Below, in pieces: positions 3,930 through 56,310 of a stretch of DNA of 64,000 nucleotides (positions are counted from its first letter, which is position 1; each line of letters begins with the position of its first letter). The position numbers were made by a program, and so were the translations under genes. A model generated the notes under the pieces. It saw only the letters and a list, made by a program, of their open reading frames with translations. It did not search any database and was not told the DNA's origin. This DNA is from Yuukianura sp. NJ FZ-2021. Lineage: Eukaryota. The DNA lies in contig CM102289.1 in NCBI GenBank assembly GCA_046563655.1, positions 1,240,001 through 1,304,000 of the forward strand, written 5' to 3'.

Positions 3930-3943
3930 TGTATCTAACAAAT

Positions 3944-4301
3944 CAATCAATCAGTTTATTTGATCTTGGCCGATGCCCTATCAATTACATTCCTGCAGCT
4001 CGTTTAAGTTTTAAGAAGAACTTAGTTAGTATAACTTAGTTAAATGGTTAAAAATTAAGATAGAAGAATTAGTGCGTAGGCATAGTTGGGTCGAAAAGGT
4101 GTGTACAAATTGCAAAGTCAATTATAATTAAAAGAAAGAATATCTTCAAGGGAAAATTAAAAAACCTTATTCCAACTTTCATCTGCTTAGCATTGGTTCG
4201 AATATTTCCAGTATTTTAGCGTTGAAGTTTTGAATTTTTCCTATGAAGGCAGCGTCCGTTGCATTTGAGATGGTCCAAAGTATTGGGCACTGGTCTGGCG
4301 G
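3944..4301 (-). mobile_element. 5'-truncated LINE 3' fragment (~358 bp) with 13-bp TSD
   Basis: Reverse complement of the LINE 3' end at ~36371-36733, including AATAAA and the (GATT)n tail. Flanked by GTATCTAACAAAT at 3931-3943 and 4302-4314. Confidence 0.92.
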
Positions 4302-5085
4302 GTATCTAACAAATGGAACACTAGCAACACCTAGAGTAAAAACAAGTAAAAAATACAAATCTAACAATAAGTTTAATTGCGGAAAGAAAATGCTTATACT
4401 AATAATATCCAAAATTTCAAAATTTTGAAAAGTTAAAAGTTTAGGTAACAAAAATTTGGATAAATTGGAACAAGACATTTTAACTTACTCTTTGTCAAAT
4501 GTAGCGTTCAATTGATACGGTTGATTTGATTTGTCGAAACTTTTATAGTAAGATGACCTTGCCTAAATGTTTACTTGGAAAACAAGAAAACCCGAAATGA
4601 ATTAGTGCTGCAAAGTAAGAAAAATTGGTACCTGTTTCTTTACAAGTTTTGAACTTAAGTCGAAGGCTGAGATTCAAAATGTATGAAGTGGTTCACCATG
4701 AAATAATTTTCATGGAAGAAATTTGCACTTGAGTCATGAAGTTTATATAAGACAAAGAGAAGATTTTAACGAGAATTTTATTTCAATTCGTTTGACATCT
4801 GTTTGCATCAAATTATTTCTGGATCATTTTCTCTACGTGCAAGTGTTTTGAGAAATTAGATTTTTCGACCAGTTCGTTCGTTGTAATTCAACTTTCGTGG
4901 TAATTGGTTTCGGAAAAATTCATTCGGGAAATTCACTCAATGAAATGGCGTGACTCCCAACCTAAGTATGTAACCCAACCTAGTGACAAAATCAAGGTTT
5001 TGGTTATTTTGAAAATTCAGGAATTCAAGAAAAGAAAAATCATCAGAAAAGTTCCTTTAAATGCAACTTCTTTTTGTTTTTGTTT

Positions 5086-21828: not shown

Positions 21829-22305
21829 ATGTCTCGTGACTTCACTAAACCGTATACCGAGCAGGAGTTGGACGAAGTGAAATCCATCTTCCGAAAAATG
21901 CCCACTTTTTCCAACGAAGGTTTCATCCTGGCCAGCGACATTGGACTTTTAAATGATCGCATTGGCTACAAACGCACACCCGAGCAGAATGTCGCCTACG
22001 AACGGTATTGGCGACAACATTTTGGTGGATTCATCCCCATGCCGGTAATGATTGACACTCTAAGAAATATGCACGACGACGGAAAACTAGCTAAGAATCG
22101 TGCGCAAATCTACGACATTGATGGAGATGGGTACATTTCGATGGAAGAATTTGAGGAGTTCATGGCAATGTACCGGATTCACAATCCGCACTATGGTGAA
22201 ACTTCATATACTAAATTTGTAGAAGAGGCGGACACAAACAAGGACGGCCAAGTTAGTCTCGACGAGTTTGCAGAGTGGATGACAAGGAATTCTGGAAAAA
22301 ACTGA
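21829..22305 (+). CDS. Calmodulin-like EF-hand protein, copy 7 (only inverted copy, 158 aa)
   Basis: ATG at 21829. EF loops DIDGDGYISMEE and DTNKDGQVSLDE. Confidence 0.9.
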   Translation: MSRDFTKPYTEQELDEVKSIFRKMPTFSNEGFILASDIGLLNDRIGYKRTPEQNVAYERYWRQHFGGFIPMPVMIDTLRNMHDDGKLAKNRAQIYDIDGDGYISMEEFEEFMAMYRIHNPHYGETSYTKFVEEADTNKDGQVSLDEFAEWMTRNSGKN

Positions 22306-22973
22306 AACTTGAATATTTTATGTTAACATATTAAACATCAAAACATTTAAATAATAAACATTTGAAGTTTGGCCATTATGGAAATTTCAAAATCAAAAAA
22401 TTACTGGATTAGAGCCTTTAGAGTGTACAGCCCCTAAACACAAAAGCTAAAAATTTCCTGACAATAATTTTGATAAATTGAAAAATTTATTCCATCAATC
22501 GTGGAGCTTAACTTACGCGTCTGAGATGATTTGTTTCGTCGAAATTTTTATAATAAACTGACCTTGCCTAAATTCTTATCCGGTATATAGGAAAATCTGA
22601 ATTGAATTTGAAATTTGGAACCTGTTTTTTCAGACAAGTTTTTTACTTAAGGTGAAGGTTGAGATATATAATGTATAAGATCTGGATTCACCTTGAAGTA
22701 AAATTCATGGAGGAAATTCAAAGTTTTATTTTATTTCTTTGGAAATTGTCTATATCAATTGTTTTCGGATAGTTTTATGTTTAAATTTATTTGAAACCAT
22801 TTCTTGAAAATTTAGAATTTGTGGCATTGATCTTCATCCTGCATTTTTTCCAATTCAAGCGGAAATAGAATTTTTGTTCATCCATTCCTGAAATTCTTCC
22901 AGACTGACTTTGCCGTCTTTGTTTTTGTCCGCTTCTTTCGAAAATTGTTCAGATGAAATTTCACGAAATCGAG

Positions 22974-23967
22974 TGTAGCGACGATGTCCTTTTTTTTATT
23001 TTTTCTGGTAATTAAATTTTAATTCAGTGATCGTCTGCCCTCCCCTTATGGACGTGCCCGTAGTTAGGCGTTCTTCTAGTTTAGGCATTCATCTAGTTAT
23101 AGGTCTTCTAGATATAGGCAGTATAGGTTAGCAGTTTTTTTAGGTTAAGTTGGAATTCCCCTGTTAACCCCTGCTCCCTTTAGTTTAAGCTCAGATATGG
23201 TTTTTCCCCTTTGTCAGCCCTCCCCCTAGGTTATTCATTCAGTAGCGTAAGTCTTTTCTTTCAGCAGCTAAGGGATAGGAAGGAGTAAGATGTTACCCCC
23301 GGACATCACGTTTGGGTGGTAAAATCTTCCTTCTTCTGGCTCCTCCCCTCCTTTCTCTATAAATACCTGTGTATTTCAGTTCGACAGTCAGTAAGAAATC
23401 AGTAATCAGTCAGTTCAGAATACACTCTCTTGGTCGGAAGTTCTCTTGTTCTCAGTTTCATTCATTCGACAGTCGAATTAGACACTCGGCATTAGACTTT
23501 CGGCAGTCGACACTCGACACTCGGCATCAGACACTCGGCATCAGACACTCGGCATCAGACACTCGGCATCAGACACTCGGCATCAGATATTCGGCAGTCG
23601 ACACTCGGCACAAGACGTTCGACTCAAGACACTCGGCACAAGACACTCGGCACAAGACACTCGGCATTAGACATTCGGCATTAGACATTCGGCATTAGAC
23701 ATTCGGCATTAGACATTCGGCATTAGACTTTCGACAGTCGCATTAGACGTTGGGAATTCGACAACAGATTTAGTGTGAACCCATCCTTCATATAGCCATT
23801 GGGATACCGTTCGTGGTAGTATCTGGCCGGCCTTACACACCGACAGATACATCTATACCACAGTCCTCCTCATTCTAACAGTTTCGGTTGAGTTGTTTCC
23901 GTCAGTTCAGTTACTCAGACTTGTTCTATATTGTGCTCTAAAAAATTCTGGAGCTATCGAAATTACA
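22974..23967 (+). repeat. 5' LTR (994 bp) with internal 14-bp tandem repeats
   Basis: TGTAGCGACG...GAAATTACA; TATAAA at ~23358; (AGACACTCGGCATC)n-type array at ~23480-23735. Confidence 0.95.
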
Positions 23968-23985
23968 TGGTCCTTCGAACCGGAT
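23968..23985 (+). other. Primer-binding site complementary to the tRNA-Tyr 3' end
   Basis: TGGTCCTTCGAACCGGAT immediately after the 5' LTR. Confidence 0.85.
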
Positions 23986-24173
23986 CGACCCAGCCATCTG
24001 ACGAGCAGTAAACCAGAGGAAGACATCCCACTTGGACATCAGTCATCACCTTTTTAAAAGGTCTATGTGAGCACCGAGCCAGCTCCAAAAAACCTACAGG
24101 GCTCTACATCAGGTGATATCGTCCCAAACGTATCATTACATTACCAATCTAATCTCAGTCCCCGTTTTCAGCT

Positions 24174-27100
24174 ATGGCAGACCTTCCGCATTCCTCTCGA
24201 AACCCACCCAGCGAAGAATTGGCAGACACTGAGGCTGACACCGTCATATCAGTCAGGGCAAGTCCACAGGGAATTGTCACTCAACCAGAAGACGACACAA
24301 GAAGTGTTGCGTCACACGTCAGTCACGTCTCAGTGAGGTCAACCATTCGGAAGAAACAACGGGAATTGGAATTGACAGCACGGATGAAGATGATGGAAGA
24401 AGACAGAAAGATTGCGCAGATGACGGCCGAGCAGGACAAGAAACTTCGGGAGATGGCCGCTGAGCAAGACAAGAAGATCATCGAGATGAAGCTGCAGATG
24501 GAGTTGGAGAACCTCGCAGATGAGGAACAGGATATTCTAGAAGAAATGGGACTCGTTGAGTGGCCTCAACCGGTGGGAAACCGTACAGACTGCCAGAAGA
24601 AAGCTACCCAAGATTGGGTCAACAACGTCCCGTCAGGTCCAGTGTCTCCAGCTCCTTCACAAGCCCCATCAGACCACATTAAGAGGGAACCACAACCACC
24701 AGCATCAGTTCACCAGTCAGAAGCGAAATCTGAAATTGTTCAGGTCGGAGAAGTAATTGCCGCGGCCCTCGGTAAGGCATTGGAGCAGATGAAACCGGTA
24801 GTTACTCCTTCCACCTCCGAAAAGGTGCTGGCCAGAAAAGCTTACGGCAGTGATCTTCCCCAGTTCAATGGTCGTCCAGAAGAGTGGTTAGTCTTCCACA
24901 CAGCGTATACCCAGTCATCTCAGAAATGCGAGTTTTCAGACTACGAGAATCTTCACCGTCTACGCAAATGCTTGAAAGGAGAAGCCCAAAAAGAAGTTGA
25001 GTGCCTGCTAGATGACCCAGAAAACGTCCCTCGGATCATGACTATCCTGGAAAATAAATTCGGGCGCAAGAAGCACATCATTAACTATCATCTCTCCAAA
25101 CTCCAGAGCGTTCCGCACATGAAGGAGAATGATCTAACGTCAGTCATGAACTTCGGAAGGTACGTCCGTAATCTAGTAGAGACACTCAAGGGTTTCAAAT
25201 CACAGGTCTATTTGGAGAATCCCCAACTATTGGATAGCCTCATCGACAAGTTACCAGACTCCATGAAAGAGAAGTGGATGGAATCCCACGACGACGACAC
25301 GAGTTCTCTCATCCTCTTCGAGGAATGGATCAGAAAGAAGGTCGACATTGCTGAGAGACTCGTACAACCAAAAATCAAGGAGGAGAGACACAAGAGTGAA
25401 AAACAGACTAGCAGATCCGTACTCACAACGGAACAGGGAAGTTCATCTCAGACAACTCCAGCCAGTCCTCAAGGTTCGTCACCGTCTCAGTCAACTTCAA
25501 GCAGTTCACAAGCATCGCTTCAGCCTCAGCGGCAGCAGTCCACTCCAAAGGTCACCCGATGTCAACATTGTCAGACAGATGGACATCGCATCCAGGGTTG
25601 TGACCAGTTCAAGAAAGCCGATTTCGATGCTCGCCTCAAGACAGTCAAGGATCGGAAACTATGCTATGGATGCCTCAACTTCGGTCATGGAACAAAGGAT
25701 TGTCGCTCCAAAAAGAAGTGCACAATTGGTGACTGCACCCACTTCCACCACCAGCTTCTACATCGGACCGCAGCTCCTGCCACCAACCACGTCGAGCCAC
25801 TTCAGTTACACGTCTCCAGTCAAGTCACCTACCAAGTTCTTCCCGTCACACTCAGAGGCCCGAAGGGAGAAGTCTCTACATATGCTCTACTGGATCCAGG
25901 ATCAGGCTACACTCTGTTGGACGAAGAACTTGCGGACCAACTACAACTCAGAGGTAAGAGACAACCACTTGGTTTCTCTACAATCAGTCACAGTCAGGGA
26001 TCAGAAATCCCATCACGTTCAGTTTCACTAAGTATTGTCAATCCCACTACCGGAGACTCATTCAAAATCACCGATGTACGTACTTTCCCCTCACTTACTC
26101 TTCGCGCCGGCACCGTGACTCCCTCACAACTTTCAGAATGGAAGCATTTCGATGGATTGCCTCTTCCATTGTATTCAGATGTCCGGCCGAAGATCCTGAT
26201 TGGCCTTCCACACCATGAGCTGATTACCCCCACAGAGGTGCGGAAAGGGCGTCAGAATAGTCCAGCAGCGGGAAAGACGCCACTCGGATGGATGGTCTAC
26301 GGAAAGATGGCCCTCCCAGAAGAGTGCAAAACAGTCAGCTACATCAATGGAGTCTACAGCATTACAGATTCAGATCCCCTTCATCAATTGGTCAAACAGT
26401 ACTTCAGTACAGAAGAGTTCGGTGTCAAACCCACTACATCTTCTCCTTACACCAAGGATGAGCAGAAGGCTGAAGATATTGCCATGAGGACGCTTCGCAG
26501 AGTCGGAGACAGGTACGAGGTTGGACTTCTTTGGAAGGATGAGACAGTAACGCTGCCTGAGAGTAAGACGATGGCCCTCCAGCGACTCTCTTCCATCGAG
26601 CGAAAACTAGACAAGGACCCTGTCTACGCTAAGAAGTACTGCGAGAATGTCCAACACTACATCGATTCAGGCTACCTCCAGAAGATGTCGAAGGAAGAAG
26701 CAGAGACAGTAACTCCGCGGACTTGGTTCCTTCCTCACTTTGGAGTTAGCAAGGTTAGTAAGCCAGAAAAGCTCAGATTGGTCTTTGATGCAGCAGCAAC
26801 CAGTCACGGAGTCAGCCTCAATTCAGCATTGCTCAGTGGACCGGACATTCTCAGACCCTTACCATCAGTTCTTTGCAAATTCAGAGAAAGGCAGATCGCA
26901 ATCACAGCCGACATCAAGGAAATGTTTCACCAAGTCAAGATGCGTGAAGAAGATCAACTCAGTCAGAGAATCCTTTGGAGAGGAATGGATCGAGTCAACC
27001 CTCCAAACCAGTACAAGATGGCAGTCATGACCTTTGGAGCAACCTGTTCGCCCTACTGTGCTCAACTTGTCAAGAGAGAAAACGCCATGCAGTTTGCTGA

Positions 27101-29741
27101 TAAATTTCCCAGAGCAGTGGATGCAATTGTCGCTCGTCACTACGTGGACGATTTGTTGGATTCATGCGACACCTCAGCCAAAGCCTTCATTCACTTCCAG
27201 GAGGTGTTCAAGATTCAGAAACATGGAGGCTTTCATCTCTGCAACTGGGCGTCCAACGATCCCACATTCATCCAGAACATTCCAGAAGATCTCCGCTCCA
27301 AATCTCAGAAGTCTTTCGGAAACAAAGACACCATTGCCAGTGAGCGGATCCTCGGTCTTGAGTGGAACCCTGGAGAGGACTTCTTCACCTTTTCAACCAG
27401 TTTCTTCAAAGTCAGGAAGGAGATCCTCGACGGACAGGAGTCGCCTACGAAGAGAGAAGCCTTGTCTGTGGTAATGTCAGTTTTCGATCCCCTGGGTTTT
27501 GCAGCAGTCCTCACAGTCAAGGCAAAGATCCTGTTGCAACTTGCTTGGCGTGCCGGAATTGGATGGGACGATATCCTACCAGAGTCACTGTGGATCAAGT
27601 GGAAGGAATGGATTGAAGACCTCAGAACAATCTCTTCCTTCAAGATTCCGAGATGTTACTCCCACCACTTCTCCATTGCTGACTCAATTGAACTTCACGT
27701 CTTCTGTGACGCCAGCGAGTTGGCCTACTCAGCGGTCGCCTACTTCAGATTGGAATCCGGTGAGACAGCCTTCGTAGCAGCCAAGACCAGAGTAACTCCT
27801 CTCAAAGCTATGACCATTCCGAGGTATGAACTTCAGGCCGCAGTTATGGGAGCCAGACTCTCCCAATCTATCAAGGAGTGGCATAGCATCCAGCCTACGA
27901 AGTGTTTCTTCTGGACCGACAGTCGCACCGTCATGTGCTGGCTGTCCATGGACTCATGCCGTTTGAAGCAGTTCGTGTCCAACAGAGTAGGTGAGATCCT
28001 AGACTTGACAGACAAGACAGATTGGAACTGGATTTCCACCCATCAGAATGTTGCCGATGAAGCCACCAGAGACAGAGACCGATGCGATTTCTCACCAGAC
28101 AGTCGATGGTTAAATGGACCAGCATTCCTGAAGCTATCCCGAGACCAGTGGCCCATCGGACAACCACCAGAACTGAACGAAGACCCTGAAATTCTAGAGA
28201 TCAAGAAGGAGTTTTGTGGACATGTGGAGAACTTGAAAAAGACTGCAGGTGAGTGTCCTTTCGACATCTCACGATTCTCCTCATGGACCCGACTCATCAG
28301 AGCAACCGGGTACCTTCTTCGCGCAGTCAGATTCGGATTTCGTGGAGGCAGTCACCCCTATCCACCTTTCGCCATTTCCGAGCTTTTCGAGTCGGAGACC
28401 TTTTGGTGGAGATGGGCTCAACAGGAATCTTATCCAGCCGTTGTCCTTGCCTTCCGTATGAAAGATTACCCCAGAGCAGCCAAACACCAGCTACACACAC
28501 CACTGCGAGGCTTGTCAATCTACATGGATGATACGGGAGTTCTTCGCCTCAAGGGACGTGTGCAGGCTGATGTTGAGATCGGAAACCTGGAACGGAATCC
28601 AGTAATCCTTCATCCGAAACATCCATACACAATCTTACTGATCAGACACTACCACGAGAAGGCAGGACACCAAAACAAGGACCAAGTTGTCAATGATCTC
28701 AAGCAGCGGTTCTGCATCACAAGTCTCAGAGAAGCAGTCAAGAAGGCCTGGTTCAACTGTCAACGTTGCAAAAATGATCGTGCTCGCCCAGTACCTCCAG
28801 AGATGGCTCCATTGCCCTTGGCACGACTCGACAGTTACCAGAGACCCTTCACTAGGACAGGCGTTGACTACTTTGGACCTATGGAAGTGACTATTGGAAG
28901 AAGACATGAGAAGCGGTATGGTGCCCTGTTTACTTGCTTGGTAACCCGTGCAGTTCACCTGGAATTAGCCGGATCCCTCTCAACCGACAGCTTCATCATG
29001 GCTCTTCGTCGCTTCATCTCCCGCAGGGGCAACCCAGCCCATATTTACTCAGACAACGGCAACAACTTCGTGGGCGCAAACAACGAACTGCAGAAGGCCA
29101 TCAAAGAACTAGATCAAGAGAAGATTCGTGCTGAGATGACCATCAGAACCATTGAATGGCATTTCAATCCGCCGTATGCACCACACATGGGAGGAAGTTG
29201 GGAGAGGATGGTTCAGGCCGTAAAGAGAGCTCTCCATGCAGTACTGAAGGAAAGAACACCTCGAGAAGAGACTCTACTTACCTTCCTCACAGAAGCCGAG
29301 AATACCGTCAATGGCCACCCGCTTACATATGTTGACTCAGACGTGGAATCAGAAGAAGTTCTCACTCCCAACCACTTTCTCATCGGAACACCCAACGGGT
29401 ACCAACCACCTGGAGCCTTTGACGATGGAGACCTCATTCCTGGGAAGCAGTGGAGACTTGCGATGCGACTGGCCGATCACTTCTGGGGACGCTGGATTCG
29501 TGAGTTCCTGCCAACCCTGACCAACCGCCAGAAGTGGATCGAGAAGGCTACTCCCATCCAGGTCGGAGACGTTGTCTTGATCGTGGACGATTCCCTTCCC
29601 CGGAACTGCTGGCTGAAAGGCATCGTCGAGGAGGTCCCAGAAACCAAGGACGGACAGACACGTTGGGCCAACATCAGGACAGCAGCAGGACATTACAAGA
29701 GACCCGCCACCAAGTTATGCGTCCTTAAAGTTAATCAGTAG
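24174..29741 (+). CDS. BEL/Pao Gag-Pol polyprotein (1855 aa)
   Basis: Gag (LPQFNGRPEEW), three zinc knuckles, protease LLDPGS, RT (RLVFDA, TADIKEMF, HYVDD), RNase H (FCDAS, WTDS), integrase (HHCC, GVDYFGP, YSDNG, GGSWER). Confidence 0.96.
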   Translation: MADLPHSSRNPPSEELADTEADTVISVRASPQGIVTQPEDDTRSVASHVSHVSVRSTIRKKQRELELTARMKMMEEDRKIAQMTAEQDKKLREMAAEQDKKIIEMKLQMELENLADEEQDILEEMGLVEWPQPVGNRTDCQKKATQDWVNNVPSGPVSPAPSQAPSDHIKREPQPPASVHQSEAKSEIVQVGEVIAAALGKALEQMKPVVTPSTSEKVLARKAYGSDLPQFNGRPEEWLVFHTAYTQSSQKCEFSDYENLHRLRKCLKGEAQKEVECLLDDPENVPRIMTILENKFGRKKHIINYHLSKLQSVPHMKENDLTSVMNFGRYVRNLVETLKGFKSQVYLENPQLLDSLIDKLPDSMKEKWMESHDDDTSSLILFEEWIRKKVDIAERLVQPKIKEERHKSEKQTSRSVLTTEQGSSSQTTPASPQGSSPSQSTSSSSQASLQPQRQQSTPKVTRCQHCQTDGHRIQGCDQFKKADFDARLKTVKDRKLCYGCLNFGHGTKDCRSKKKCTIGDCTHFHHQLLHRTAAPATNHVEPLQLHVSSQVTYQVLPVTLRGPKGEVSTYALLDPGSGYTLLDEELADQLQLRGKRQPLGFSTISHSQGSEIPSRSVSLSIVNPTTGDSFKITDVRTFPSLTLRAGTVTPSQLSEWKHFDGLPLPLYSDVRPKILIGLPHHELITPTEVRKGRQNSPAAGKTPLGWMVYGKMALPEECKTVSYINGVYSITDSDPLHQLVKQYFSTEEFGVKPTTSSPYTKDEQKAEDIAMRTLRRVGDRYEVGLLWKDETVTLPESKTMALQRLSSIERKLDKDPVYAKKYCENVQHYIDSGYLQKMSKEEAETVTPRTWFLPHFGVSKVSKPEKLRLVFDAAATSHGVSLNSALLSGPDILRPLPSVLCKFRERQIAITADIKEMFHQVKMREEDQLSQRILWRGMDRVNPPNQYKMAVMTFGATCSPYCAQLVKRENAMQFADKFPRAVDAIVARHYVDDLLDSCDTSAKAFIHFQEVFKIQKHGGFHLCNWASNDPTFIQNIPEDLRSKSQKSFGNKDTIASERILGLEWNPGEDFFTFSTSFFKVRKEILDGQESPTKREALSVVMSVFDPLGFAAVLTVKAKILLQLAWRAGIGWDDILPESLWIKWKEWIEDLRTISSFKIPRCYSHHFSIADSIELHVFCDASELAYSAVAYFRLESGETAFVAAKTRVTPLKAMTIPRYELQAAVMGARLSQSIKEWHSIQPTKCFFWTDSRTVMCWLSMDSCRLKQFVSNRVGEILDLTDKTDWNWISTHQNVADEATRDRDRCDFSPDSRWLNGPAFLKLSRDQWPIGQPPELNEDPEILEIKKEFCGHVENLKKTAGECPFDISRFSSWTRLIRATGYLLRAVRFGFRGGSHPYPPFAISELFESETFWWRWAQQESYPAVVLAFRMKDYPRAAKHQLHTPLRGLSIYMDDTGVLRLKGRVQADVEIGNLERNPVILHPKHPYTILLIRHYHEKAGHQNKDQVVNDLKQRFCITSLREAVKKAWFNCQRCKNDRARPVPPEMAPLPLARLDSYQRPFTRTGVDYFGPMEVTIGRRHEKRYGALFTCLVTRAVHLELAGSLSTDSFIMALRRFISRRGNPAHIYSDNGNNFVGANNELQKAIKELDQEKIRAEMTIRTIEWHFNPPYAPHMGGSWERMVQAVKRALHAVLKERTPREETLLTFLTEAENTVNGHPLTYVDSDVESEEVLTPNHFLIGTPNGYQPPGAFDDGDLIPGKQWRLAMRLADHFWGRWIREFLPTLTNRQKWIEKATPIQVGDVVLIVDDSLPRNCWLKGIVEEVPETKDGQTRWANIRTAAGHYKRPATKLCVLKVNQ

Positions 29742-29791
29742 TAGACATCGCTTATTTTTAGTATGAACGTGCACGTTCATACGGGGGGGAA

Positions 29792-30772
29792 TGTAGCGAC
29801 GATGTCCTTTTTTTTATTTTTTCTGGTAATTAAATTTTAATTCAGTGATCGTCTGCCCTCCCCTTATGGACGTGCCCGTAGTTAGGCGTTCTTCTAGTTT
29901 AGGCATTCATCTAGTTATAGGTCTTCTAGATATAGGCAGTATAGGTTAGCAGTTTTTTTAGGTTAAGTTGGAATTCCCCCTGTTAACCCCTGCTCCCTTT
30001 AGTTTAAGCTCAGATATGGTTTTTCCCCTTTGTCAGCCCTCCCCCTAGGTTATTCATTCAGTAGCGTAAGTCTTTTCTTTCAGCAGCTAAGGGATAGGAA
30101 GGAGTAAGATGTTACCCCCGGACATCACGTTTGGGTGGTAAAATCTTCCTTCTTCTGGCTCCTCCCCTCCTTTCTCTATAAATACCTGTGTATTTCAGTT
30201 CGACAGTCAGTAAGAAATCAGTAATCAGTCAGTTCAGAATACACTCTCTTGGTCGGAAGTTCTCTTGTTCTCAGTTTCATTCATTCGACAGTCGAATTAG
30301 ACACTCGGCATTAGACTTTCGGCAGTCGACACTCGACACTCGGCATCAGACACTCGGCATCAGACACTCGGCATCAGACACTCGGCATCAGATATTCGGC
30401 AGTCGACACTCGGCACAAGACGTTCGACTCAAGACACTCGGCACAAGACACTCGGCACAAGACACTCGGCATTAGACATTCGGCATTAGACATTCGGCAT
30501 TAGACATTCGGCATTAGACATTCGGCATTAGACTTTCGACAGTCGCATTAGACGTTGGGAATTCGACAACAGATTTAGTGTGAACCCATCCTTCATATAG
30601 CCATTGGGATACCGTTCGTGGTAGTATCTGGCCGGCCTTACACACCGACAGATACATCTATACCACAGTCCTCCTCATTCTAACAGTTTCGGTTGAGTTG
30701 TTTCCGTCAGTTCAGTTACTCAGACTTGTTCTATATTGTGCTCTAAAAAATTCTGGAGCTATCGAAATTACA
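29792..30772 (+). repeat. 3' LTR (981 bp)
   Basis: By eye it matches the 5' LTR except for one fewer 14-bp repeat unit and one extra C in a C-run. Confidence 0.95.
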
Positions 30773-32477
30773 TCGAGGATTGTAGGCTCGAACGACTGCC
30801 ATAAACTCTTCAAACTCTTGATTCGAAATATATCCGTCTCTGTCAAGGTCGTAAGCGGCTGCCCGATTTCGAAAACAGGTTGCTCCGTCGTGAAAATTTT
30901 CAATAGTTTCCATCATTTCACTCATTGGAATGTAGCCTCCGAATCGTTGTTGCCAGTAGCGTACGTACACTAATTCTTCCTCTTGCGACAGTATAATTCC
31001 GATTCGCTTAGCAAGTAACGGAAGGTCGCTAGCTTTGATGTAGCCTTCGTCGGAGAACGTCGGAAGTGCTCGGAAAGTTGATTTAATGCTTTCGAGCTCA
31101 TCTTTTGTGTAGCGTCGCCTGGAATCGCGTGGCATTTTTTCCTCTACAAAAGCGGGCATCGCTAAAATGAAAACAAATCGGTTAATATAAAAAAAAATTA
31201 TGAAATAATACACCAGAAATCCAAATTGGGGAACTTTTTTCATCCTCATTCACGTGACATATAAGGAAGATACAATAAAAGCTAACTTTTTGTGAGGTCT
31301 CGTACTATACGGAAATGACTGATGTGAGAATGGGTGGTGCAATTTCTTCAATGGACTTTAGTCGTAAGGTTTACGGTATTTGGCGGGAAAATCTTTTTAT
31401 ACCAATCAACCAATTAGAGTGAGTTCCCCATTTTGGAGTTCTGGTAATTTAACCAGCAAAGACTATTGGAGCTTACCGAAGTTTATGCGAAGAAGTGAAA
31501 TATTTTTGAAATTTTAAGTTTTTAACTTAAAATTAGTTTCTTTTTCTTGATTTGAAGCCGCTGTGAGTAATGGTTTGAAAAAAAAGTCTCGGAGCCCTTT
31601 TAAACCGAACGGTTATGAGACGCAAGTGTGCGTGAAAACCAGAATGTCCAGAATTTAAAACTACTATGCAAACTGCATTTGCGTCAAAATTTAAATTAAC
31701 AACCAAATTTACAATTTTATTTCCTGCGTGAAATTGATTTTTGAAGTTTTGGTCCAAGGTTTCTAATGTGAACTGCTTTCGTGGATTCAAACTACGTCAA
31801 ACTTTTTGAATCCGGGTATTAGCCTTTGTCCAGCCCGACCTTGCCGTACTTGAAATGGCTTGGCACAACCAGTGACGTTATAAATTTTCTCCTGCAACTA
31901 GTTTTTTCAAACTCGTTTTGTCTATGGGTCATTTTAATTTTTTCACCTCGAATCTTCTTTTCGTTTCGAGTTTTTTCCCATACTTTTTACAATCATATTT
32001 TTCAAAAACTAAAATGCATTTTTAGTTTTATGTTTTAAGTATATGACATGCTGATGGACATAATTTTTTTTAAAATCTCTTCCGTTTTTTGAAGCGTTAG
32101 TGACTACTTTACAAGCAGGCAAAATAGTACAAAAATTTTTTGATCCCTCCTTAAATCCAAAATGACTAAAACTAGTGCTTTTTTGGGTTTTCGCTCATTA
32201 TCGTTTCAACTTCAACGGATTTTATATTTTACAGAAAAGTTTTAACTGAATTTGAAGGTGTAAGACTCATAATCTAAAACCTGTATTCACTTTGAAATAA
32301 ATTTTGAAGAAGAAATTCACAATTTTATTTTATTTCTTTGAAAATTGTCTATTTTAATTTATTTCCGGAGTATTTTAAATTTAAATGGAATCGTTTTTTG
32401 AAAATTTAAAATTTTTGACATCGATGACAATTCAGAATTTGTGACATCGATGTTCATCCTCTAATTTCTTCTCAAAT

Positions 32478-32953
32478 TCAAGCGGAAATAGAATTTTTCT
32501 TTATCCATTCCTGAAATTCGTCGAGACTGACTTTGCCGTCTTTGTTTGAATCTGCCTCTTCTACAAACTTGGCATACGAAATATGGCGATAATTTGGGTT
32601 GTGAATTCGGTACATTGCCATGTACTCCTCAAACTCTGGCATCGAAATGTATCCGTCTCCATCAAAGTCGTAGACTTGCGCACAATTCCTAGCCAGTTTT
32701 GCTTCGTCGTGCCAATATCTCAGAATTTCAATCATTATCCTCATAGGGATGAATCCGCCATAACGTAGGCGCCAATAACGTTCGTAGATTGCAATCTGCT
32801 CGGGCGTGCGCGGAATTCCGATCCGCTCAAAGAAAAGTCCGACTTCGCTTGCCAGGAAAAACCCTCGTCGGAGAATGTCGGAAGTCCTCGGAAAATGGAT
32901 TTCACACCTTCGAGCTCCTGCTCGGTGTACGGTTTCGTGAAGTCACGTGACAT
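32478..32953 (-). pseudogene. EF-hand copy 9, with a 1-nt frameshift in a T-run after FSDEG
   Basis: ATG at 32953. GGT TTT TC CTG lacks one base versus paralogs (~32857-32861); the remainder is colinear. Could be an assembly homopolymer error. Confidence 0.75.
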
Positions 32954-33315: not shown

Positions 33316-34243
33316 TTAAAATGTTAACGTAAGCTTTAGAAAAATTTTGATAAACTGAAACGAGACATGCTTAACTTACTCTGACAAACTGCTTACTTCA
33401 ACTGACGCGTATAAAGAGGTTTGTGAAAAATTAATATTTATTATTCGTTATTTAATAACGAGATGGCCATGGCATTGCCTAAATGTTTAGCTGGTAAACC
33501 AGAAAACCTGAAATTAATTCACTAATACTTGTTTCGCGACTTTTTTAATTTGGAACAAGTTTTTAACTGAAGTCGAAGGTTGAGAATCATAATCTAAAAT
33601 ATGGTTTACCATGAAGTAAATTTCATGAATGAAATTTACACTTGGTCATGAAATTTTTCACCCCAAGGGAGAATTTTAACGAAAATATAAACTTGTTTAA
33701 AAATGATCTACGCCATGCTTTTTTGGTTCAACTTTTTGCTTTCATGTTTTTTTAAGCAGTATTTTGAAACCTTTTGTTTGTCAGGTTATGGGTTGACAAA
33801 TAGTACGCAAAAATTCAAAATTTTCTAAAATTTGCCTAAAGTTAGTACTTATTTCGTGTATTGCAATGTAAACTCTGCACAGTAAATGATAATGAACTGC
33901 ATCAACGCATAGTTAGCTGATTTTTTCTAATAATCACATTTCAAACTTTTGTTTTTGTTTTCGCTCTTGCTTTATTTAACTTCAATGTATTTTAATCAAC
34001 GCCAAAATAGACCTCAAATGTTTAAATCTCGGTTTATTTCGTGTTTAAAACGCTTTTTGAGCGGAATGTTTGCCCATCCATTTGGCAAATTCATCAAGAC
34101 TGATCTTGCCGTCTCTGTCCGTGTCAGCTTCTTCTACAAACTGCTCATACGTAAGGTCACGATAGTGCGGATTGTGAATACCGCAGAGGACCAAGAACTC
34201 CTCAAACTCTGACATGGAAATGTAGCCGTCTCCATCAATGTCG
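33316..34243. repeat. 928-bp direct duplication, left copy (right copy 36735-37662), flanking the LINE
   Basis: Constant offset of 3419. First ~680 bp identical by eye; ~8 substitutions in the last ~250 bp. Confidence 0.93.
34045..34243 (-). pseudogene. EF-hand copy 10: 3' half only, a duplicate of the copy 11 C-lobe
   Basis: DIDGDGYISMSE...KHSAQKAF* is identical in protein to the C-terminus of 37464-37946. The 5' half is replaced by the LINE. Confidence 0.9.
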
Positions 34244-36736
34244 CAATACGCAAATTCCGAAGGTGTAATACTGAAAACAGAGAGGTCTATGCCCAACGCT
34301 ACCTTGAAGCCCAAAAGAGCTACAAACAACAATTAGCAAACAAGAAATCAACGTTTAATTCGAACTTGGTCTCACAACTCCACGCTTCAAAGGACCCAAA
34401 AAATTTCTGGAAGGCGGTCAAATTCCACACAACTCAACACACCGTACAAGACAAAATCTCCAAGGAAACATGGTTCCAACACTTCCAGAACCTTTTCAAT
34501 TCAAACCAGGTTCCAAGGGATGTGCTACCAGAAAGCCGTGTTATAGAAAACGAGATCCTTGACCGCGACATAACAGCTCTGGAAATAAGACTGGCGACCA
34601 AGGAACTAAAAACAAACAAAGCGACAGGTCCTGACATAATCCCGAACGAGGTTTGGAAATCTGCCACTCCTAAGCTTCTATTATTCCTTGTCACTCTCTT
34701 CCAATCCATTTTTACAAGCGGGGTATTGCCAACTCAATGGTGCAACGCGCAAATTCATCCACTTCACAAAAAAGGCTCAAGGGACCTTCCAGAAAACTAC
34801 CGCCCAATATCGTTGATGAACACAATTCTGAAAGTATTCACCAAAATCCTCAACTCAAGACTCACAAACTGGATAAACATCAACCATAAAATTTCGGATT
34901 TCCAGGCTGGTTTTCGGAAATCAAGATCATGTACAGACCATATCTTCACTTTGATGTCCATGATCCAGTGCCAACTCCTAAGAAGGAAGGAACTGTATGT
35001 CGCCTTCGTTGATTTGTCTCAAGCCTTCGACACACCTAACCATAGTCTGTTATGGGCTGTCCTCGGCAACCTGGGTGTCTCCAACAAGTTCCTAAAAGTA
35101 TTCCGGTCACTGTACGACAATGCCACTGCCCAAATTAACACCAGAGAAGGCTTAACAGACCCGGTCAAGATCATGAAAGGAGTCCTGCAAGGAGAATCTG
35201 CTAGTCCCACACTCTTCAATCTGTTTATTGAGGACCTCGTCTCCAAGTTCTCTTCATCGCTACTGAAAGGTTATACCTTAGGTTCCCGAATTGTTCACAT
35301 CCTCCTGTACGCCGACGACCTTGTCATCACTGCTCAATCCAAAGAATTGCTGCAGGAGAAAATCAAACTCGCCTCCAACTTCTTCAAAGCGAGAGGACTC
35401 TGCGTCAACCTGGCCAAGACAAAAGTAATAGCTTTCCGTCGCTCAGGAAGAATTCGAAAAGACGACCACTTTCTCTGGAACGAAACCCCGATAGAGACCG
35501 TTTCGGAGTACAAGTACCTCGGCGTTATGTTCCAGTCAAATGGCTCATTCCGAAAAGCAGCAAGGAACGCCGTAGAGAAAGGAACCTCAGCACAAGGAGC
35601 GACCCTGAGGGTACTGAAGAAACAGAAGTACATTGACCTATGGACTATTAAAATGCTGCTACAATCACTAGTAAAATCAACCACACTGTACAACTGTGAA
35701 ATCTGGGGCCATCTCCACACTGACACCTTGGAAACGGTACAACAAAGTTACTTCAAACGTCTTCTCCACCTACCGTTTGCTACTCCCAGGTACTTTGTTA
35801 GATTGGAAACCGAATCTCTACCACTGCAATACGAAATCGTCAAAAGAACCTGGTACTTATATGCAAAATTCCACACCAACCTGGGTTCTGACCTCACAAG
35901 AAACGCATACTACCAGCTGCGTAAAATCACCTCTCTTCGCCCAGACGTCAAATACAGTTGGTGCACACAACTTAGATCCGCTCTCGCCCAGATTGGTCAA
36001 GAGGAGTCTATGATAGAGGAGCCGAGACCGAGACAAGAGCCCTGAAGCATACTATGGTACAGAAATTTAGGAACTTCTACCAAAAATCAGACGTAAGAAA
36101 AGCTGCACTATCGAAATCCATTCCTCACTACGCTGAAATCCACCAGAAATTCCCAGCGTCAGAGCTATTCTCCAAGCGGTTTCCTACGTATCTTACGATT
36201 CCAATTCTTCAAATCAGGCTCAACTCAAACCAGCTCTATTTCAACCGGAAATGGCTTGACTTTGGCCAGTTTACCGAAAAGAACTGCAGTTTTTGTGGCG
36301 ATCAACTCTCATACTACCATGCACTTTGGACTTGTCCGCAAACTGAACCCCTGAGAATCCAATTAAAACTCCCGCCAGACCAGTGCCCAATACTTTGGAC
36401 CATCTCAAATGCAACGGACGCTGCCTTCATAGGAAAAATTCAAAACTTCAACGCTAAAATACTGGAAATATTCGAACCAATGCTAAGCAGATGAAAGTTG
36501 GAATAAGGTTTTTTAATTTTCCCTTGAAGATATTCTTTCTTTTAATTATAATTGACTTTGCAATTTGTACACACCTTTTCGACCCAACTATGCCTACGCA
36601 CTAATTCTTCTATCTTAATTTTTAACCATTTAACTAAGTTATACTAACTAAGTTCTTCTTAAAACTTAAACGAGCTGCAGGAATGTAATTGATAGGGCAT
36701 CGGCCAAGATCAAATAAACTGATTGATTGATTGATT
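34244..36736 (+). mobile_element. 5'-truncated non-LTR retrotransposon (LINE; RTE-X/L2-like, clade uncertain)
   Basis: RT ORF, C-terminal CCHC motif, 3' UTR with AATAAA and a (GATT)4 tail. No endonuclease domain present. Confidence 0.92.
34366..36494 (+). pseudogene. LINE ORF2 remnant: reverse transcriptase plus frameshifted C-terminal CCHC domain
   Basis: KATGPD, NYRPISL, FQAGFR, FVDLSQAFD, GVLQGESASP, LLYADD, YKYLG. Frame change and stop near 36045, before CSFC-x7-H-x4-C in 36054-36494. Confidence 0.9.
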
Positions 36737-37463
36737 AAAATGTTAACGTAAGCTTTAGAAAAATTTTGATAAACTGAAACGAGACATGCTTAACTTACTC
36801 TGACAAACTGCTTACTTCAACTGACGCGTATAAAGAGGTTTGTGAAAAATTAATATTTATTATTCGTTATTTAATAACGAGATGGCCATGGCATTGCCTA
36901 AATGTTTAGCTGGTAAACCAGAAAACCTGAAATTAATTCACTAATACTTGTTTCGCGACTTTTTTAATTTGGAACAAGTTTTTAACTGAAGTCGAAGGTT
37001 GAGAATCATAATCTAAAATATGGTTTACCATGAAGTAAATTTCATGAATGAAATTTACACTTGGTCATGAAATTTTTCACCCCAAGGGAGAATTTTAACG
37101 AAAATATAAACTTGTTTAAAAATGATCTACGCCATGCTTTTTTGGTTCAACTTTTTGCTTTCATGTTTTTTTAAGCAGTATTTTGAAACCTTTTGTTTGT
37201 CAGGTTATGGGTTGACAAATAGTACGCAAAAATTCAAAATTTTCTAAAATTTGCCTAAAGTTAGTACTTATTTCGTGTATTGCAATGTAAACTCTGCACA
37301 GTAAATGATAATGAACTGCATCAACGCATAGTTAGCTGATTTTTTCTAATAATCACATTTCAAACTTTTGTTTTTGTTTTCGCTCTTGCTTTATTTAACT
37401 TCAATGTATTTTAATAAACGCCAAAATAGTCCTCAAATGTTTAAATCTCGGTTTAAATTGTGT

Positions 37464-37946
37464 TTAAAACGCTTTTTGAGCGGAATGTTTGCCCATCCAC
37501 TTCGCAAATTCATCAAGACTGATCTTGCCGTCTCTGTCCGTGTCAGCTTCTTCTACAAACTGCTCATACGTAAGGTCACGATAGTGCGGATTGTGAATAC
37601 CGCAGAGGACCAAGAACTCCTCAAACTCCGACATGGAAATGTAGCCGTCTCCATCAATGTCGTAGAGTTTTGCACAATTCTTAGCCATATTGGCTTCGTC
37701 ATGCCAATATCTCAACACGTCAATCATTTCTCGCATGGGGACGTAGCCTCCAAAATGTTGGCGCCAATAGCGTTGGTAGGCTGCAATCTGCTCGGGACTA
37801 CGAGGAACACCGATCTGCTCAAAGAAAAGTCCAACTTCACTCGCCAGCATGAAACCTTCGTCGGAAAATGTCGAAAGTCCTCGGAAAACGGATTTCGCAT
37901 TTTCTAGCTCCTGCTCGCTATAGGGTTTGGTGGAGTCACGTGTCAT
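37464..37946 (-). CDS. Calmodulin-like EF-hand protein, copy 11 (160 aa)
   Basis: EF loops DIDGDGYISMSE and DTDRDGKISLDE; closest to copy 2. Confidence 0.9.
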   Translation of the reverse strand: MTRDSTKPYSEQELENAKSVFRGLSTFSDEGFMLASEVGLFFEQIGVPRSPEQIAAYQRYWRQHFGGYVPMREMIDVLRYWHDEANMAKNCAKLYDIDGDGYISMSEFEEFLVLCGIHNPHYRDLTYEQFVEEADTDRDGKISLDEFAKWMGKHSAQKAF

Positions 37947-38012
37947 TGTATCTAAAAAAAACAGTCACAAAAAATATGTTAATATAAAAGAAATGTAAAG
38001 TAATAGTTTAAA

Positions 38013-38241
38013 CAAGGTTCTTCAAAAAAAAATAGTTTTCTCTTCAGCAGATTAGGTGGTAACTCGAAGTTATTTTTGTTAAAAAATGAGCAAAACTTGG
38101 TTCGCCATAATTTCTATGGCAAGGTGTTGTTGGACTGGCGGAAAATTGGCGGAAAAAAGTGTAGCCAGCCAGAATTTTAGAAAAACTTACTTATTGTCTA
38201 ACGTGTTAAAGAAAAACTATTTTGCTGCTATAGGAACCTTG
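38013..38241. mobile_element. MITE (CAAGGTTC...GAACCTTG) upstream of copy 11
   Basis: Imperfect terminal inverted repeats; possible 2-bp TSD (AA); similar to 32967-33186. Confidence 0.6.
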
Positions 38242-39741
38242 AATTTAACAGGCAAAGACTAATGGAAATGGAACTTACTAACTTGAGTTTATGCGAGATA
38301 GTAAAATATTTTAAAATTTTCGTAAGTTTTTCAACTTGAAATTAATTTGTACGTTTTGATTTGAAGCTGCTGTGACTAATGGTTTAAAACCAAATTTTCG
38401 GAGCCCTTTTAAACCGAAAGGTTATGAGACAAAGTGTGTTTAAAAACCAGAATGTCCAGAATTTAAAACTGCTACGCAAACGCCACTAGCGTCAAATTTA
38501 AATTAACATGCGACTTTACAATTTTTATTGCCAGTGAAATCGATTTTCGAATTTTGGTGGCATGATTTTTAATGTCAACTACTTTCGTAGATTCAAATTG
38601 CGTCAAACTTTTTAATTCCGGGTAGTAGTTTTGTCCAGCCTCACATCCTTGAAAGTCTTGACATAGTTCGGCAAAGCAAGTGACGTTGTAAATTTTTTCT
38701 TCGTAATTAGTAGATTTATTTTCAAAACTTGTTTTAACGGAAGTTAGATTTTGATCGAAGATTTTGATTTGAACCGAAGTGGCATCTTGAATTTTTTTAG
38801 GCTAAGTATTTTCAAGATAATTTTATGTAAAGATATGTTTTTCAGAAACTGAATAGCATTTTTCAATTTTATGAAATAATACTGGAAAAGGAAAACTCAT
38901 AATTTTAAAACAATTTGTGCAATTATTACGTTGTTCAGTACTTATGGATTGTGTTGGTTTGGTTTCAAAAACCATTTGTGCTTTATACTTAGAAAGTCGT
39001 AAATGCGCCAATGTAATATTTTGTTCAATTTTATTGGAATTTTAATAATTTAGTTTAATTATCTTTTTATTATTTATAATCATAGTCACTGGATTCGATA
39101 AATGATAGCAATAGCTATAAAACTTTAAAAACCACAATTGAAGTATCTTTTTATAATGGACAAAACTTGTTTGCTTTCGACTTTGGATTGGTTTTCAAAC
39201 CAGTAAATCTAGAACTTAATTAGTCGACTGATGTAATTTAGAACCTACTTAATGAAGATTATGCTAATTTAAGTTGGTCTTTAATTAACTTATAGAATTT
39301 AGCGGTGAGGAAATTTTGTGCTTCTTGCTTAGGAAGTGAGCTTCCTTGACAACGAAAAGTTGATTTTCTTTAACAAGTTGACTACTACCTCGCTTGTTGA
39401 GAAAAAAAAAGAAGTTAGTAAAAATTGATACAAATCCAAAAAATCTGGTACCAATTACTATGCAAACCTTAAAGAATCGGCTCTATTTTATTGACTACGA
39501 TGCTCTGCAATGAAAAGACACTTTTTCTTGTAAATTCGGAAAAACAGGAGGTATTGACCCACCTGTTAAAAAAAATAAAATTTTAAAACATTGTTAGGGA
39601 GTGTAAATAAGTGGTAAATGCTCTAATCCTGTATTTTCTTTAATTAGAAGTTTTCAACAAGGACAAGCATAAAACGTTTATTATTTGCACGTTTTAATAT
39701 TTGAACATAAAATATTCTCAATTTTCCATAATTAGTAGTTT

Positions 39742-54943: not shown

Positions 54944-56310
54944 ATGGGAGCAGACGAACCAATTCGACTTCCTCTTCTTCAGAACTCTCCAATCAAATTC
55001 GGCAGTCCGATCAAGTTGCGCTACACTTTCGACGATGTTAACCATCCAATCTATGGCAAAGCTACGGATTTGGTTGGCGAATTACAATTCTTACTGCCTA
55101 AGGGGTAAAAACTTAGTGTTTTATTAAAATTCTTGAAATTTTAATCATGCTTTTACCACATTTTAATAATGGAGAAAGAGAAAACCAGAAACAGCAAAGT
55201 ACAAGGTTTTTCTCTTTTTTTTTTTTCAAAAAAAAAGGTTGTAGGAGTTACACAAAATTGTTCAGCTTTTTAATTAGTTTATGAAACTAATTTGATTTTT
55301 TTTTCGTGCACAGATCATACCCGATTCCAAAATTTCTGGAGTTGAGTAGACGTGAGCAGGACACACTTTTACGAAATGGCATCAACCGCCTCCGGCACAT
55401 GCACCAGCACCTCAGTGAAGAAGAACTGCAAACAAAGCTGCTCGGAACGATGCTATTTTCAACATTTCTGCATCCCCGTATACACGCTGGGACACAATTT
55501 TTTGACATCGCTTACGACATTTTTGTCACAATGTTTAGAGGTGACGACTACTTGGACGATGAAGGTGGATTTCCATTGGAAATGGACACTAAATTTATTT
55601 TCAAAAAGCGTGACCTGTGGGAACGAGCTTTCAAGGGAGAATATGAAGCAGTGCATGGGGTGAGTCAAGCTTTTCCGCCAATGGAGCCTGGAATGACCTG
55701 CATGTACAAGTCACTCAAAGCCATCGAAGAACATCTTCCAAAAGTGCGGGAAAATTTAGAAGCGTTTTTCCAATCTACGATGCTAGCGGCACAGGGGGTG
55801 ACACTAAAGCAACTGTCTGGTGATGATCCGTTTTCCGAAGAAGGCCGAAAGATCATTCGGGCATATGAAGGCGGCATGGTCATCATTACTGAAATTGGGG
55901 CCGTTTTGAGAGATATTCACGTGCCGAGCTACGTCCGACAAAGTTTGTTGTTCCGCATGCTCATTGACGGCGTCTGGTACTTTTCGGCGCTAATCAACGA
56001 CGTTCTGGGACTCAACAAAGATGTTAAGAACTCCGACACGGCGTCTAATGTCATTTTGAGAAACGTTGTCGACAGAAAAATTACACTGAAACAGGCATTT
56101 GATGATGAAGTTCGGCGTTTACAAAACATAACGAAGGATATTGGAGTTGCGGCAAGAAAGTTGGTGGCAGCATTTCCGGACAAAGGAGTGGCCGACTTTA
56201 CGCAACATTGTTTGGAGTATTGTGATGGACAGACGTACTGCTACATGATACTGGCACATCTCAAAATTCGGTATGGAGCTGTCGGTACACAAATACTGCC
56301 GGATTGTTAA
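54944..56310 (+). CDS. Class I terpene synthase, microbial-type (385 aa, 2 exons)
   Basis: Exons 54944-55104 and 55314-56310 join in phase 2. DDYLD (DDxxD), sensor Arg (IIRAYEGG), NSE motif NDVLGLNKD, C-terminal RY (KIRYG). Confidence 0.88.

What the first reader, a model, noticed from the sequence alone, without database searches (positions are those of the whole stretch)
33316..37662. LINE flanked by a 928-bp 'giant TSD' that duplicated half a gene and a promoter
The sequence immediately left of the LINE 5' end (33316-34243) is repeated immediately after its (GATT)n tail (36735-37662), exactly as a target-site duplication would be. It is about 70 times longer than the 13-bp TSD made by the same family at 3931-4314. 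It copies the promoter of copy 9 and the C-lobe of copy 11. The ~8 differences cluster in the 250 bp nearest the 5' junction and the coding ones are synonymous, suggesting that part came from a different allele. Inference: retrotransposition-coupled tandem duplication, by a distant second nick or repair from the homolog, is one way this array grows.
Basis: partly seen in the sequence, partly recalled or inferred. Interest (0 to 1): 0.75.

Follow-up and report, generated by a model that had tools for sequence, protein, structure and literature searches.

The report
LINE bridging a two-allele duplication
A young jumping gene sits between two copies of the same 928 bases of a calcium-binding gene cluster, and the copies differ by letters found in other alleles, so the insertion likely joined two chromosome copies out of register; this kind of event is known from human cells and flies, and here it made no new complete gene.

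Summary
33316-34243 repeats at 36735-37662 around a 2.49-kb 5'-truncated LINE, with 8 differences, all in the last 247 bp. The tail joins a family-type TT|AAAA site; the 5' end has a 2-bp microhomology. Of 37 other family copies, 20 have 12-19-bp TSDs and none has a clean long duplication.

Best reading (0.45): one insertion whose cDNA joined a break 928 bp downstream on the homologue. Rivals: a perfect giant TSD later recombined or phase-switched (0.3), Bar-type crossover between two insertions (0.13), mis-join (0.08). No read spanning both copies was seen.

Large L1 TSDs and duplicate-TE-duplicate alleles (Bar, px1) are published. 'This is how the array grows' is unsupported: the product is a start-less 65-codon fragment, and no other paralogue junction carries a relic of this LINE. 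My look-ups found no earlier scan report of this kind.

The parts
33316..34243 (+). Left copy (A) of the 928-bp duplicated unit
34244..36734 (+). 5'-truncated non-LTR retrotransposon: ORF2 from about codon 349 of the 1100-codon relative, RT domain, ORF2 split near 36002, 3' UTR, (GATT)n tail whose last TT overlaps the start of copy B
36735..37662 (+). Right copy (B) of the unit; starts at the TT|AAAA nick site and runs on into the intact gene
34242..34243 (+). 2-bp microhomology (CG) at the 5' junction, shared by target and by the 92% relative of the LINE
33997..34210 (.). Zone of the 8 A/B differences (37416-37629 in B); 6 of the 8 A-type letters are listed as variants in public-run contigs
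33374..33405 (-). Predicted transcription start (Inr-like TCAGTTGAA), 26-nt first exon and GTAAGT donor of the gene at 32478-32953; the same motif lies upstream of 7 of 10 paralogues scanned
   Evidence: function inferred from conservation
36793..36824 (-). Duplicate of that promoter/first exon, now pointing antisense into the LINE's 3' end
34045..34243 (-). Truncated EF-hand gene fragment (codons 96-160 of gene 11 plus stop); the frame stays open for 30 codons into the LINE antisense strand but has no ATG there
37464..37946 (-).
32478..32953 (-). EF-hand gene (copy 9), frameshifted near 32860-32895 in the assembly; the LINE nick site lies in its predicted 5'-UTR intron
3931..4314 (-). 362-bp 3' fragment of the same LINE, 100% identical, with an exact 13-bp TSD (comparison copy)

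Best explanation
A young 5'-truncated LINE sits between two allelic copies of one 928-bp segment, most likely because a single insertion was primed at the start of the segment on one chromosome and its cDNA was likely joined to a DNA end 928 bp downstream on the homologous chromosome. Shown: the geometry A-LINE-B; the tail joined at a TT|AAAA site like the family's other sites; a 2-bp microhomology at the 5' junction; the youth of the element; the allelic nature of the A/B differences. Inferred: step 1, the LINE endonuclease nicked at 33316/36735 and primed reverse transcription there, fixing LINE-B-right flank. Step 2, instead of a second nick 12-19 bp away, the truncated cDNA end was captured by microhomology at a break or an extended 3' end 928 bp further on. 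Step 3, that end came from, or was copied from, the homologue, which puts another allele's letters in A. The result is an unequal join that keeps gene 9's predicted promoter (in A) and gene 11's coding and 3' region (in B) whole, and adds only a start-less gene fragment and a spare promoter facing the LINE.
For: Tail junction GATT|AAAATG matches the family: T|A at 17 of 21 tallied sites, one of them (L052) unsure. Removing LINE plus one copy restores normal array spacing: 1092 bp from ATG to the next stop, against 782-1024 bp for four other neighbours and 1796 bp for a fifth. The LINE is very young: 1 substitution in 2289 bp against the C3 copy, 100% identity to the 362-bp copy. At most about 0.6 post-insertion changes are expected in 2 x 247 bp against 6-8 seen, P about 4e-5. 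No paralogue explains the A letters: 0 of 11 aligned paralogues is clearly closer to A than to B (largest gap one base). In one search, A-type letters are listed at 37416, 37430, 37456, 37457, 37459 and 37629. An X1 contig covering 37501-37797 carries the A-type T at 37629 and runs through 37662 into the N-terminal half of gene 11, so that letter exists on an intact allele. An X2 contig begins exactly at 36735, as expected if two left contexts (unique flank and LINE tail) meet there; this is indirect. The same outcome is published for L1: TSDs of 0.2-6.8 kb in repair-deficient cells (PMC5223499, passages), 1-10-kb tandem duplications read as large TSDs (bioRxiv 2024.12.14.628481, passages), and an L1 bridging chromatids in a tumour duplication (PMC7058536, passages).
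Against: No read or contig spanning both copies was seen, and no 37662-to-34244 joint is listed in any of the 4 runs laid; the stretch began at 34244, so such contigs may have been counted as running over its end. The X1 contig passes 37662 unbroken, so X1 shows no sign of the A-LINE junction. That contig has the B-type C at 37503, and the A letters at 37500 and 37503 are not among the 40 rows shown (147 hidden). The first 681 bp are polymorphic in the runs (2 substitutions and 3 indels listed), yet A and B are identical there, which two random alleles need not be; a later exchange explains this as well. A T|A site does lie 21 bp left of the 5' junction, so a second independent insertion there is not excluded. 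Published models use the sister chromatid or the intact strand, not the homologue.
Confidence: 0.45

Rival explanations
1. One insertion made a perfect 928-bp TSD (distant second nick, break-induced copying of the intact strand, or a sister-chromatid bridge). The allelic letters came afterwards, by a crossover or gene conversion with an empty allele inside the repeat, or by a haplotype switch when the genome was assembled.
For: Identity over the first 681 bp followed by allelic differences is what an exchange point inside B would leave. Sister-chromatid and intact-strand models are the published ones. The differences lie next to the unique right flank, where reads from an empty allele would anchor.
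Against: The element is very young, which leaves little time for a crossover in a 681-bp window. Base accuracy of the assembly looks good: 11 of 15 longer relatives have an unbroken ORF2 of about 1100 codons, though this does not test phasing. Run X2 holds a contig identical to the proximal part (36735-37127) and A-type letters at 37416-37459, which fits A being one whole natural allele (unphased).
Confidence: 0.3
2. Bar-type unequal crossover: two separate same-orientation insertions of this LINE, one at 33316 on one haplotype and one at 34243 on another, recombined and left one hybrid LINE between two allelic copies.
For: It predicts allelic copies directly, as at Drosophila Bar (PMC13322080, section 6) and white (PMC7003089, passages). 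The array attracts this LINE: 2 of the 3 near-identical copies in the assembly lie 33 kb apart (rough chance 0.002). A T|AGCC site, like that of L067, lies 21 bp left of the 5' junction. An unexplained X1 joint 37253-to-36435 could be a third insertion in the unit (table 5c).
Against: It needs two insertions within 928 bp from a lineage with 3 near-identical copies in 98.7 Mb. No T|A site lies 12-19 bp left of 34243, the family's TSD range. No tail-to-376xx joint is listed in the runs. The 37253 joint joins two similar A-rich stretches at a lowered likeness threshold and may be spurious.
Confidence: 0.13
3. Assembly mis-join: two haplotypes, each with its own LINE insertion, were joined inside the LINE, so the duplication does not exist on any chromosome.
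For: A and B carry allelic letters; no spanning read was seen; X1 shows a single uninterrupted gene 11.
Against: It needs the same two independent insertions as the crossover model. The window lies in a 10-Mb contig of a 22-contig assembly, and the 4.3-kb A-LINE-B block is short for long reads (inference; read type not on record). No alternative haplotig of the unit is present.
Confidence: 0.08

Closest known systems
Large target-site duplications of human L1 in cultured cells (Servant et al., PMC5223499, passages seen; Gilbert et al. 2002/2005 as cited there)
   Same: 5'-truncated APE-type LINE with a normal endonuclease site at the 3' junction, flanked by a duplication of hundreds to thousands of bases; a minority outcome (at most 10% in HeLa per that paper; 1 of 38 copies here).
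   Different: Here natural and apparently inherited, in an arthropod, by a (GATT)n-tailed LINE of untested clade; the two copies carry different allelic letters.
L1-mediated tandem duplications in tumours and induced clones (PMC7058536; bioRxiv 10.1101/2024.12.14.628481; bioRxiv 10.1101/2024.08.27.596794; passages seen)
   Same: A single LINE at the junction of a tandem duplication, explained by cDNA capture on another chromatid or break-induced replication; 1-10-kb cases are called large TSDs.
   Different: Those are somatic and modelled on the sister chromatid, the intact strand or non-homologous chromosomes; this one is 0.93 kb with evidence for two alleles.
Drosophila Bar1 (roo between 203.5-kb copies) and px1 (1.5-kb partial-exon duplication separated by DM412) (PMC13322080, section 6 and passages seen)
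   Same: Germline duplicate-TE-duplicate structure; divergent copies (Bar); partial gene duplicated (px1).
   Different: Those involve LTR elements; Bar arose by crossover between two existing elements, whereas here the 3' junction is a LINE priming site and the 5' junction a truncation with microhomology.

Membership tests
TPRT insertion of an APE-type non-LTR retrotransposon | Reverse transcriptase ORF, with an N-terminal endonuclease in full-length members | tested here: met
   PF00078 at E 2e-36; full-length relatives have an ORF1 and a ~1100-aa ORF2; many ORF2 homologues carry PF14529/PF03372. The focal copy lacks the endonuclease part through truncation.
TPRT insertion of an APE-type non-LTR retrotransposon | Intact 3' tail joined at an endonuclease-type site; variable 5' truncation | tested here: met
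   (GATT)n then AAAATG, TT shared; T|A at 17 of 21 tallied family sites; truncation at 34244.
TPRT insertion of an APE-type non-LTR retrotransposon | Short TSD at both ends | tested here: not met
   No short TSD at the focal 5' end; 928-bp repeat instead. 20 of 37 other copies have 12-19 bp.
LINE-mediated large TSD / tandem duplication (single insertion) | Duplication breakpoints coincide with both LINE ends, direct orientation | tested here: met
   A ends at 34243, LINE 34244-36734, B starts at 36735.
LINE-mediated large TSD / tandem duplication (single insertion) | Only one endonuclease site, at the 3' junction | tested here: inconclusive
   No T|A within 12-19 bp of the 5' junction, but one at 21 bp.
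LINE-mediated large TSD / tandem duplication (single insertion) | An empty allele with one copy of the segment and no LINE exists | tested here: inconclusive
   X1 contig crosses 37662 unbroken with an A-type letter, as an empty allele would; the left junction of that allele was outside the stretch laid.
LINE-mediated large TSD / tandem duplication (single insertion) | Both copies and the LINE lie on one molecule | not testable with these tools
   Only short-word contigs were served; no listed piece spans the stretch.
Bar-type unequal crossover between two TE copies | Two parental alleles, each with the TE at one breakpoint and its own short TSD | tested here: inconclusive
   No such joint listed in 4 runs from at most 3 samples; contigs show presence, not absence.
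A named LINE clade (L1, RTE, CR1, I, Jockey and so on) | RT phylogeny with reference elements | not tested
   Nearest named RT homologues are springtail proteins at 40-45% identity with generic labels; no reference set was on hand.

The most novel reading that the evidence does not exclude
A single germline LINE insertion acted as an unequal crossover between homologous chromosomes: primed on one homologue and sealed on the other 928 bp downstream. The allelic letters would then be a direct record of template choice during retrotransposition in an animal germline. Such 'buffered' insertions, which leave both neighbouring genes whole, could persist and seed copy-number change in tandem gene arrays. 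My searches (listings and the passages named) showed no natural single-LINE case with allelic copies.
Probability: 0.35. Interest if true: 0.6.

Novelty: new member of a known kind. Interest (0 to 1): 0.4.

Why it matters
Large duplications at LINE insertions are known mainly from cultured human cells and tumours, and one germline survey collected only TSDs of 5-30 bp (PMC2912911, passage). This is a clean natural example in an invertebrate gene array, with markers that can show which chromatid sealed the insertion. Its effect on the host looks small: no new complete gene, both neighbours keep their parts, and the 928-bp repeats should allow the LINE to be lost again by recombination (suggested for long TSDs in PMC5223499). 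It matters as a testable case of template choice, not as a new system.

Tried and rejected
Mutation after insertion as the source of the 8 differences: rejected, P about 4e-5 at the upper bound, and all 3 coding changes are silent.

Gene conversion from a paralogue: rejected; no paralogue carries the A pattern and no third near-identical copy is in the assembly.

Long flanking duplications at other family copies: 36 other loci plus the small in-window copy were examined. Six gave long flank matches. L056 is a 75% paralogue match. L059 and L071 are ordinary 17- and 14-bp TSDs inside older tandem repeats. L052, L053 and L061 lie in tandem or dispersed repeats and could not be scored. Three copies gave only 8-10-bp matches and 13 gave none (L053 and L061 among them). 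About 6-7.6 kb upstream of each tail was visible, and the genome search is a lower bound (40 of 43 candidates scored).

LINE scars at older array junctions: none by tblastn or blastn in the window plus 10 kb each side.

A chimeric protein from fragment A: no ATG in the 30 open codons upstream; splicing from the duplicated promoter is untested.

No RNA holder listed. The metagenome scan found nothing. No homologue of the EF-hand protein scored in the 5.8-billion set; the Atlas gave generic EF-hand clusters only. Runs X4 and X6 cover the unit too thinly to score; contig depths were not used as copy numbers.
Full report
Observation. The window (G000:C7:1240001-1304000, 98.7-Mb assembly in 22 contigs) holds one 928-bp direct repeat, A = 33316-34243 and B = 36735-37662, with 8 mismatches and no gaps. 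All mismatches fall in the last 247 bp; the first 681 bp are identical. The three coding differences are silent. Between the copies lies a 2491-bp LINE fragment with an RT domain. A 92%-identical relative aligns from base 34244 and continues further 5', so the truncation point is exact; target and relative share the two bases CG there. The host is probably a springtail: the best named RT homologues are from Folsomia and Orchesella at 40-45% identity (inference).

Context. The region is a tandem array of intronless EF-hand coding sequences: 12 near-complete copies, one of them frameshifted, plus one split by an LTR element and the fragment in A. A motif of Inr-like start, short first exon and GTAAGT donor lies upstream of 7 of 10 copies scanned; for gene 9 it is at 33405-33374, inside A. 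The LINE's nick site therefore falls in gene 9's predicted 5'-UTR intron. A also holds codons 96-160 of gene 11 with no start codon in the 30 open codons upstream. Removing the LINE and one copy gives a 1092-bp spacing, close to four of five other neighbours, so a single-copy ancestor is the natural reading. Gene 9 keeps its predicted promoter and gene 11 its whole coding region, so the duplication buffers the insertion but adds no complete gene.

Family survey. From the genome search I took 36 other loci plus the 362-bp copy in the window. Twenty of these 37 have a TSD of 12-19 bp as scored with one mismatch and tail overlap allowed; for L066, L072 and L073 it lies 190-360 bp from the BLAST-mapped 5' end and is less sure. 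Three gave only 8-10-bp matches, 13 gave none, and L052 is unresolved. None shows a clean long duplication in unique DNA; L052, L053 and L061 sit in repeats and cannot be scored. The nick site reads T|A in 17 of 21 tallied cases, and the focal tail joins TT|AAAA. So the 3' junction is a normal priming site and the giant repeat is a rare outcome, 1 of 38. Left of the 5' junction the only T|A is 21 bp away, just beyond the family's range.

Age and origin of the differences. The focal LINE differs from the C3 copy at 1 of 2289 bases and not at all from the small copy. Even at a 95% upper bound, about 0.6 new changes are expected in the two 247-bp arms, against 6 events or 8 sites. No paralogue supplies the A letters. 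Six public runs hold the stretch; I laid four on 34244-39500. A-type letters are listed at 37416, 37430, 37456, 37457, 37459 and 37629, several at the full depth of a run. An X1 contig (37501-37797) carries the A-type T at 37629 and continues into the rest of gene 11, so at least that letter belongs to an intact allele. X1 and X2 are one sample; with X4 they differ from the assembly at full depth at several right-flank sites (for example 37954, 38012, 38047), so they do not look like the assembled haplotype. Against a simple picture: that contig has the B-type base at 37503; 37500 and 37503 are not among the 40 rows shown; the proximal 681 bp are polymorphic in the runs although A equals B there; and no joint from 37662 back to 34244 is listed. 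An X2 contig starting exactly at 36735 fits two left contexts, but this is indirect.

Mechanism. The best reading is a single target-primed insertion at the start of the unit whose truncated cDNA was joined by microhomology to an end 928 bp downstream supplied by the homologue (0.45). A perfect giant TSD with later crossover, conversion or an assembly phase switch explains the sequence nearly as well (0.3). Together these single-insertion readings have about 0.75. A Bar-type crossover between two insertions (0.13) predicts allelic copies and gains some support from the clustering of young copies in this array, but needs a second insertion at an atypical distance from a T|A site. A mis-join of two such haplotypes (0.08) has the same requirement.

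Comparison with what is known. L1 TSDs over 100 bp occur in at most 10% of HeLa insertions and in most insertions in NER-deficient cells, up to several kb (PMC5223499, passages). Tandem duplications of 1-10 kb at L1 junctions are described as large TSDs arising by break-induced replication (bioRxiv 2024.12.14.628481, passages). A 22.6-Mb tumour duplication is bridged by one L1 across sister chromatids (PMC7058536, passages). Duplication-like bridges are a class in long-read tumour data (bioRxiv 2024.08.27.596794, passages). In the fly germline, Bar1 has one roo between divergent copies and px1 has a 1.5-kb partial-exon duplication split by DM412 (PMC13322080, section 6 and passages); roo crossovers at white are described in PMC7003089 (passages). 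Extremely long TSDs are linked to 5'-truncated L1 in PMC2912911 (passages). Passages of PMC12350158 gave only normal TSD sizes. I saw no natural single-LINE case with allelic copies in the listings, but the library lacks most subscription papers and I read no supplements. The scan's own notes had nothing near this place and no finding with all the search words.

Verdict. The feature is real in the assembly and very probably in the genome. It is a new natural member of a known kind. Interest 0.4; 0.6 if phased reads and population data prove that the homologue sealed the insertion.

Noticed in passing
window 36002; L037 (G000:C3:7093919-7096207): The focal LINE and its C3 sister share a one-base shortfall that splits ORF2, while 11 of 15 longer relatives have an unbroken ORF2 and runs X1, X2 and X4 show the unbroken form. 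Both copies may descend from a frameshifted donor moved in trans, or share an assembly error.
   Followed up: partly
window 3931-4314: The 362-bp LINE fragment sits about 11 bp before the ATG of the EF-hand gene at 3459-3929, in the same sense and carrying AATAAA, so it may cut that gene's transcript. Two of the three near-identical copies in the assembly lie in this array.
   Followed up: partly
window 32860-32895: EF-hand gene 32478-32953 is frameshifted at a T run: a pseudogene allele or an assembly slip.
   Followed up: no
window 22971-30773: BEL/Pao-type LTR element with 98.4%-identical LTRs and a 1855-aa ORF splits an EF-hand gene into 30773-31135 and 22867-22974.
   Followed up: no
window 6327-10757: Helitron with an intact 1476-aa Rep-helicase ORF inside the array.
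   Followed up: no
window 22971 vs 5083 and 50996; 21829-22305: One array copy (21829-22305) is inverted relative to all others.
   Followed up: no
L069 (G000:C1:407432-417431), L071 (G000:C10:26279-36278): Short family members (about 1.5 and 2.3 kb) that keep the 5' end and the (GATT)n tail but little or none of ORF2: possibly non-autonomous derivatives.
   Followed up: no
L052, L053, L059, L061, L071: Five of 37 other family copies lie inside tandem or dispersed repeats (units of about 155, 161, 279 and 507 bp among them).
   Followed up: partly
window 37253 and 36435: Run X1 shows a joint between these places with 4 extra letters (table 5c): another short insertion in the unit or a spurious match between A-rich stretches.
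   Followed up: no
window 55399-56310: Intronless 303-aa ORF with a weak terpene-synthase Pfam hit, below the curated cut-off.
   Followed up: no
window 623-51459: The EF-hand protein family of the array had no scored homologue in the 5.8-billion-protein search; it may be lineage-specific.
   Followed up: partly
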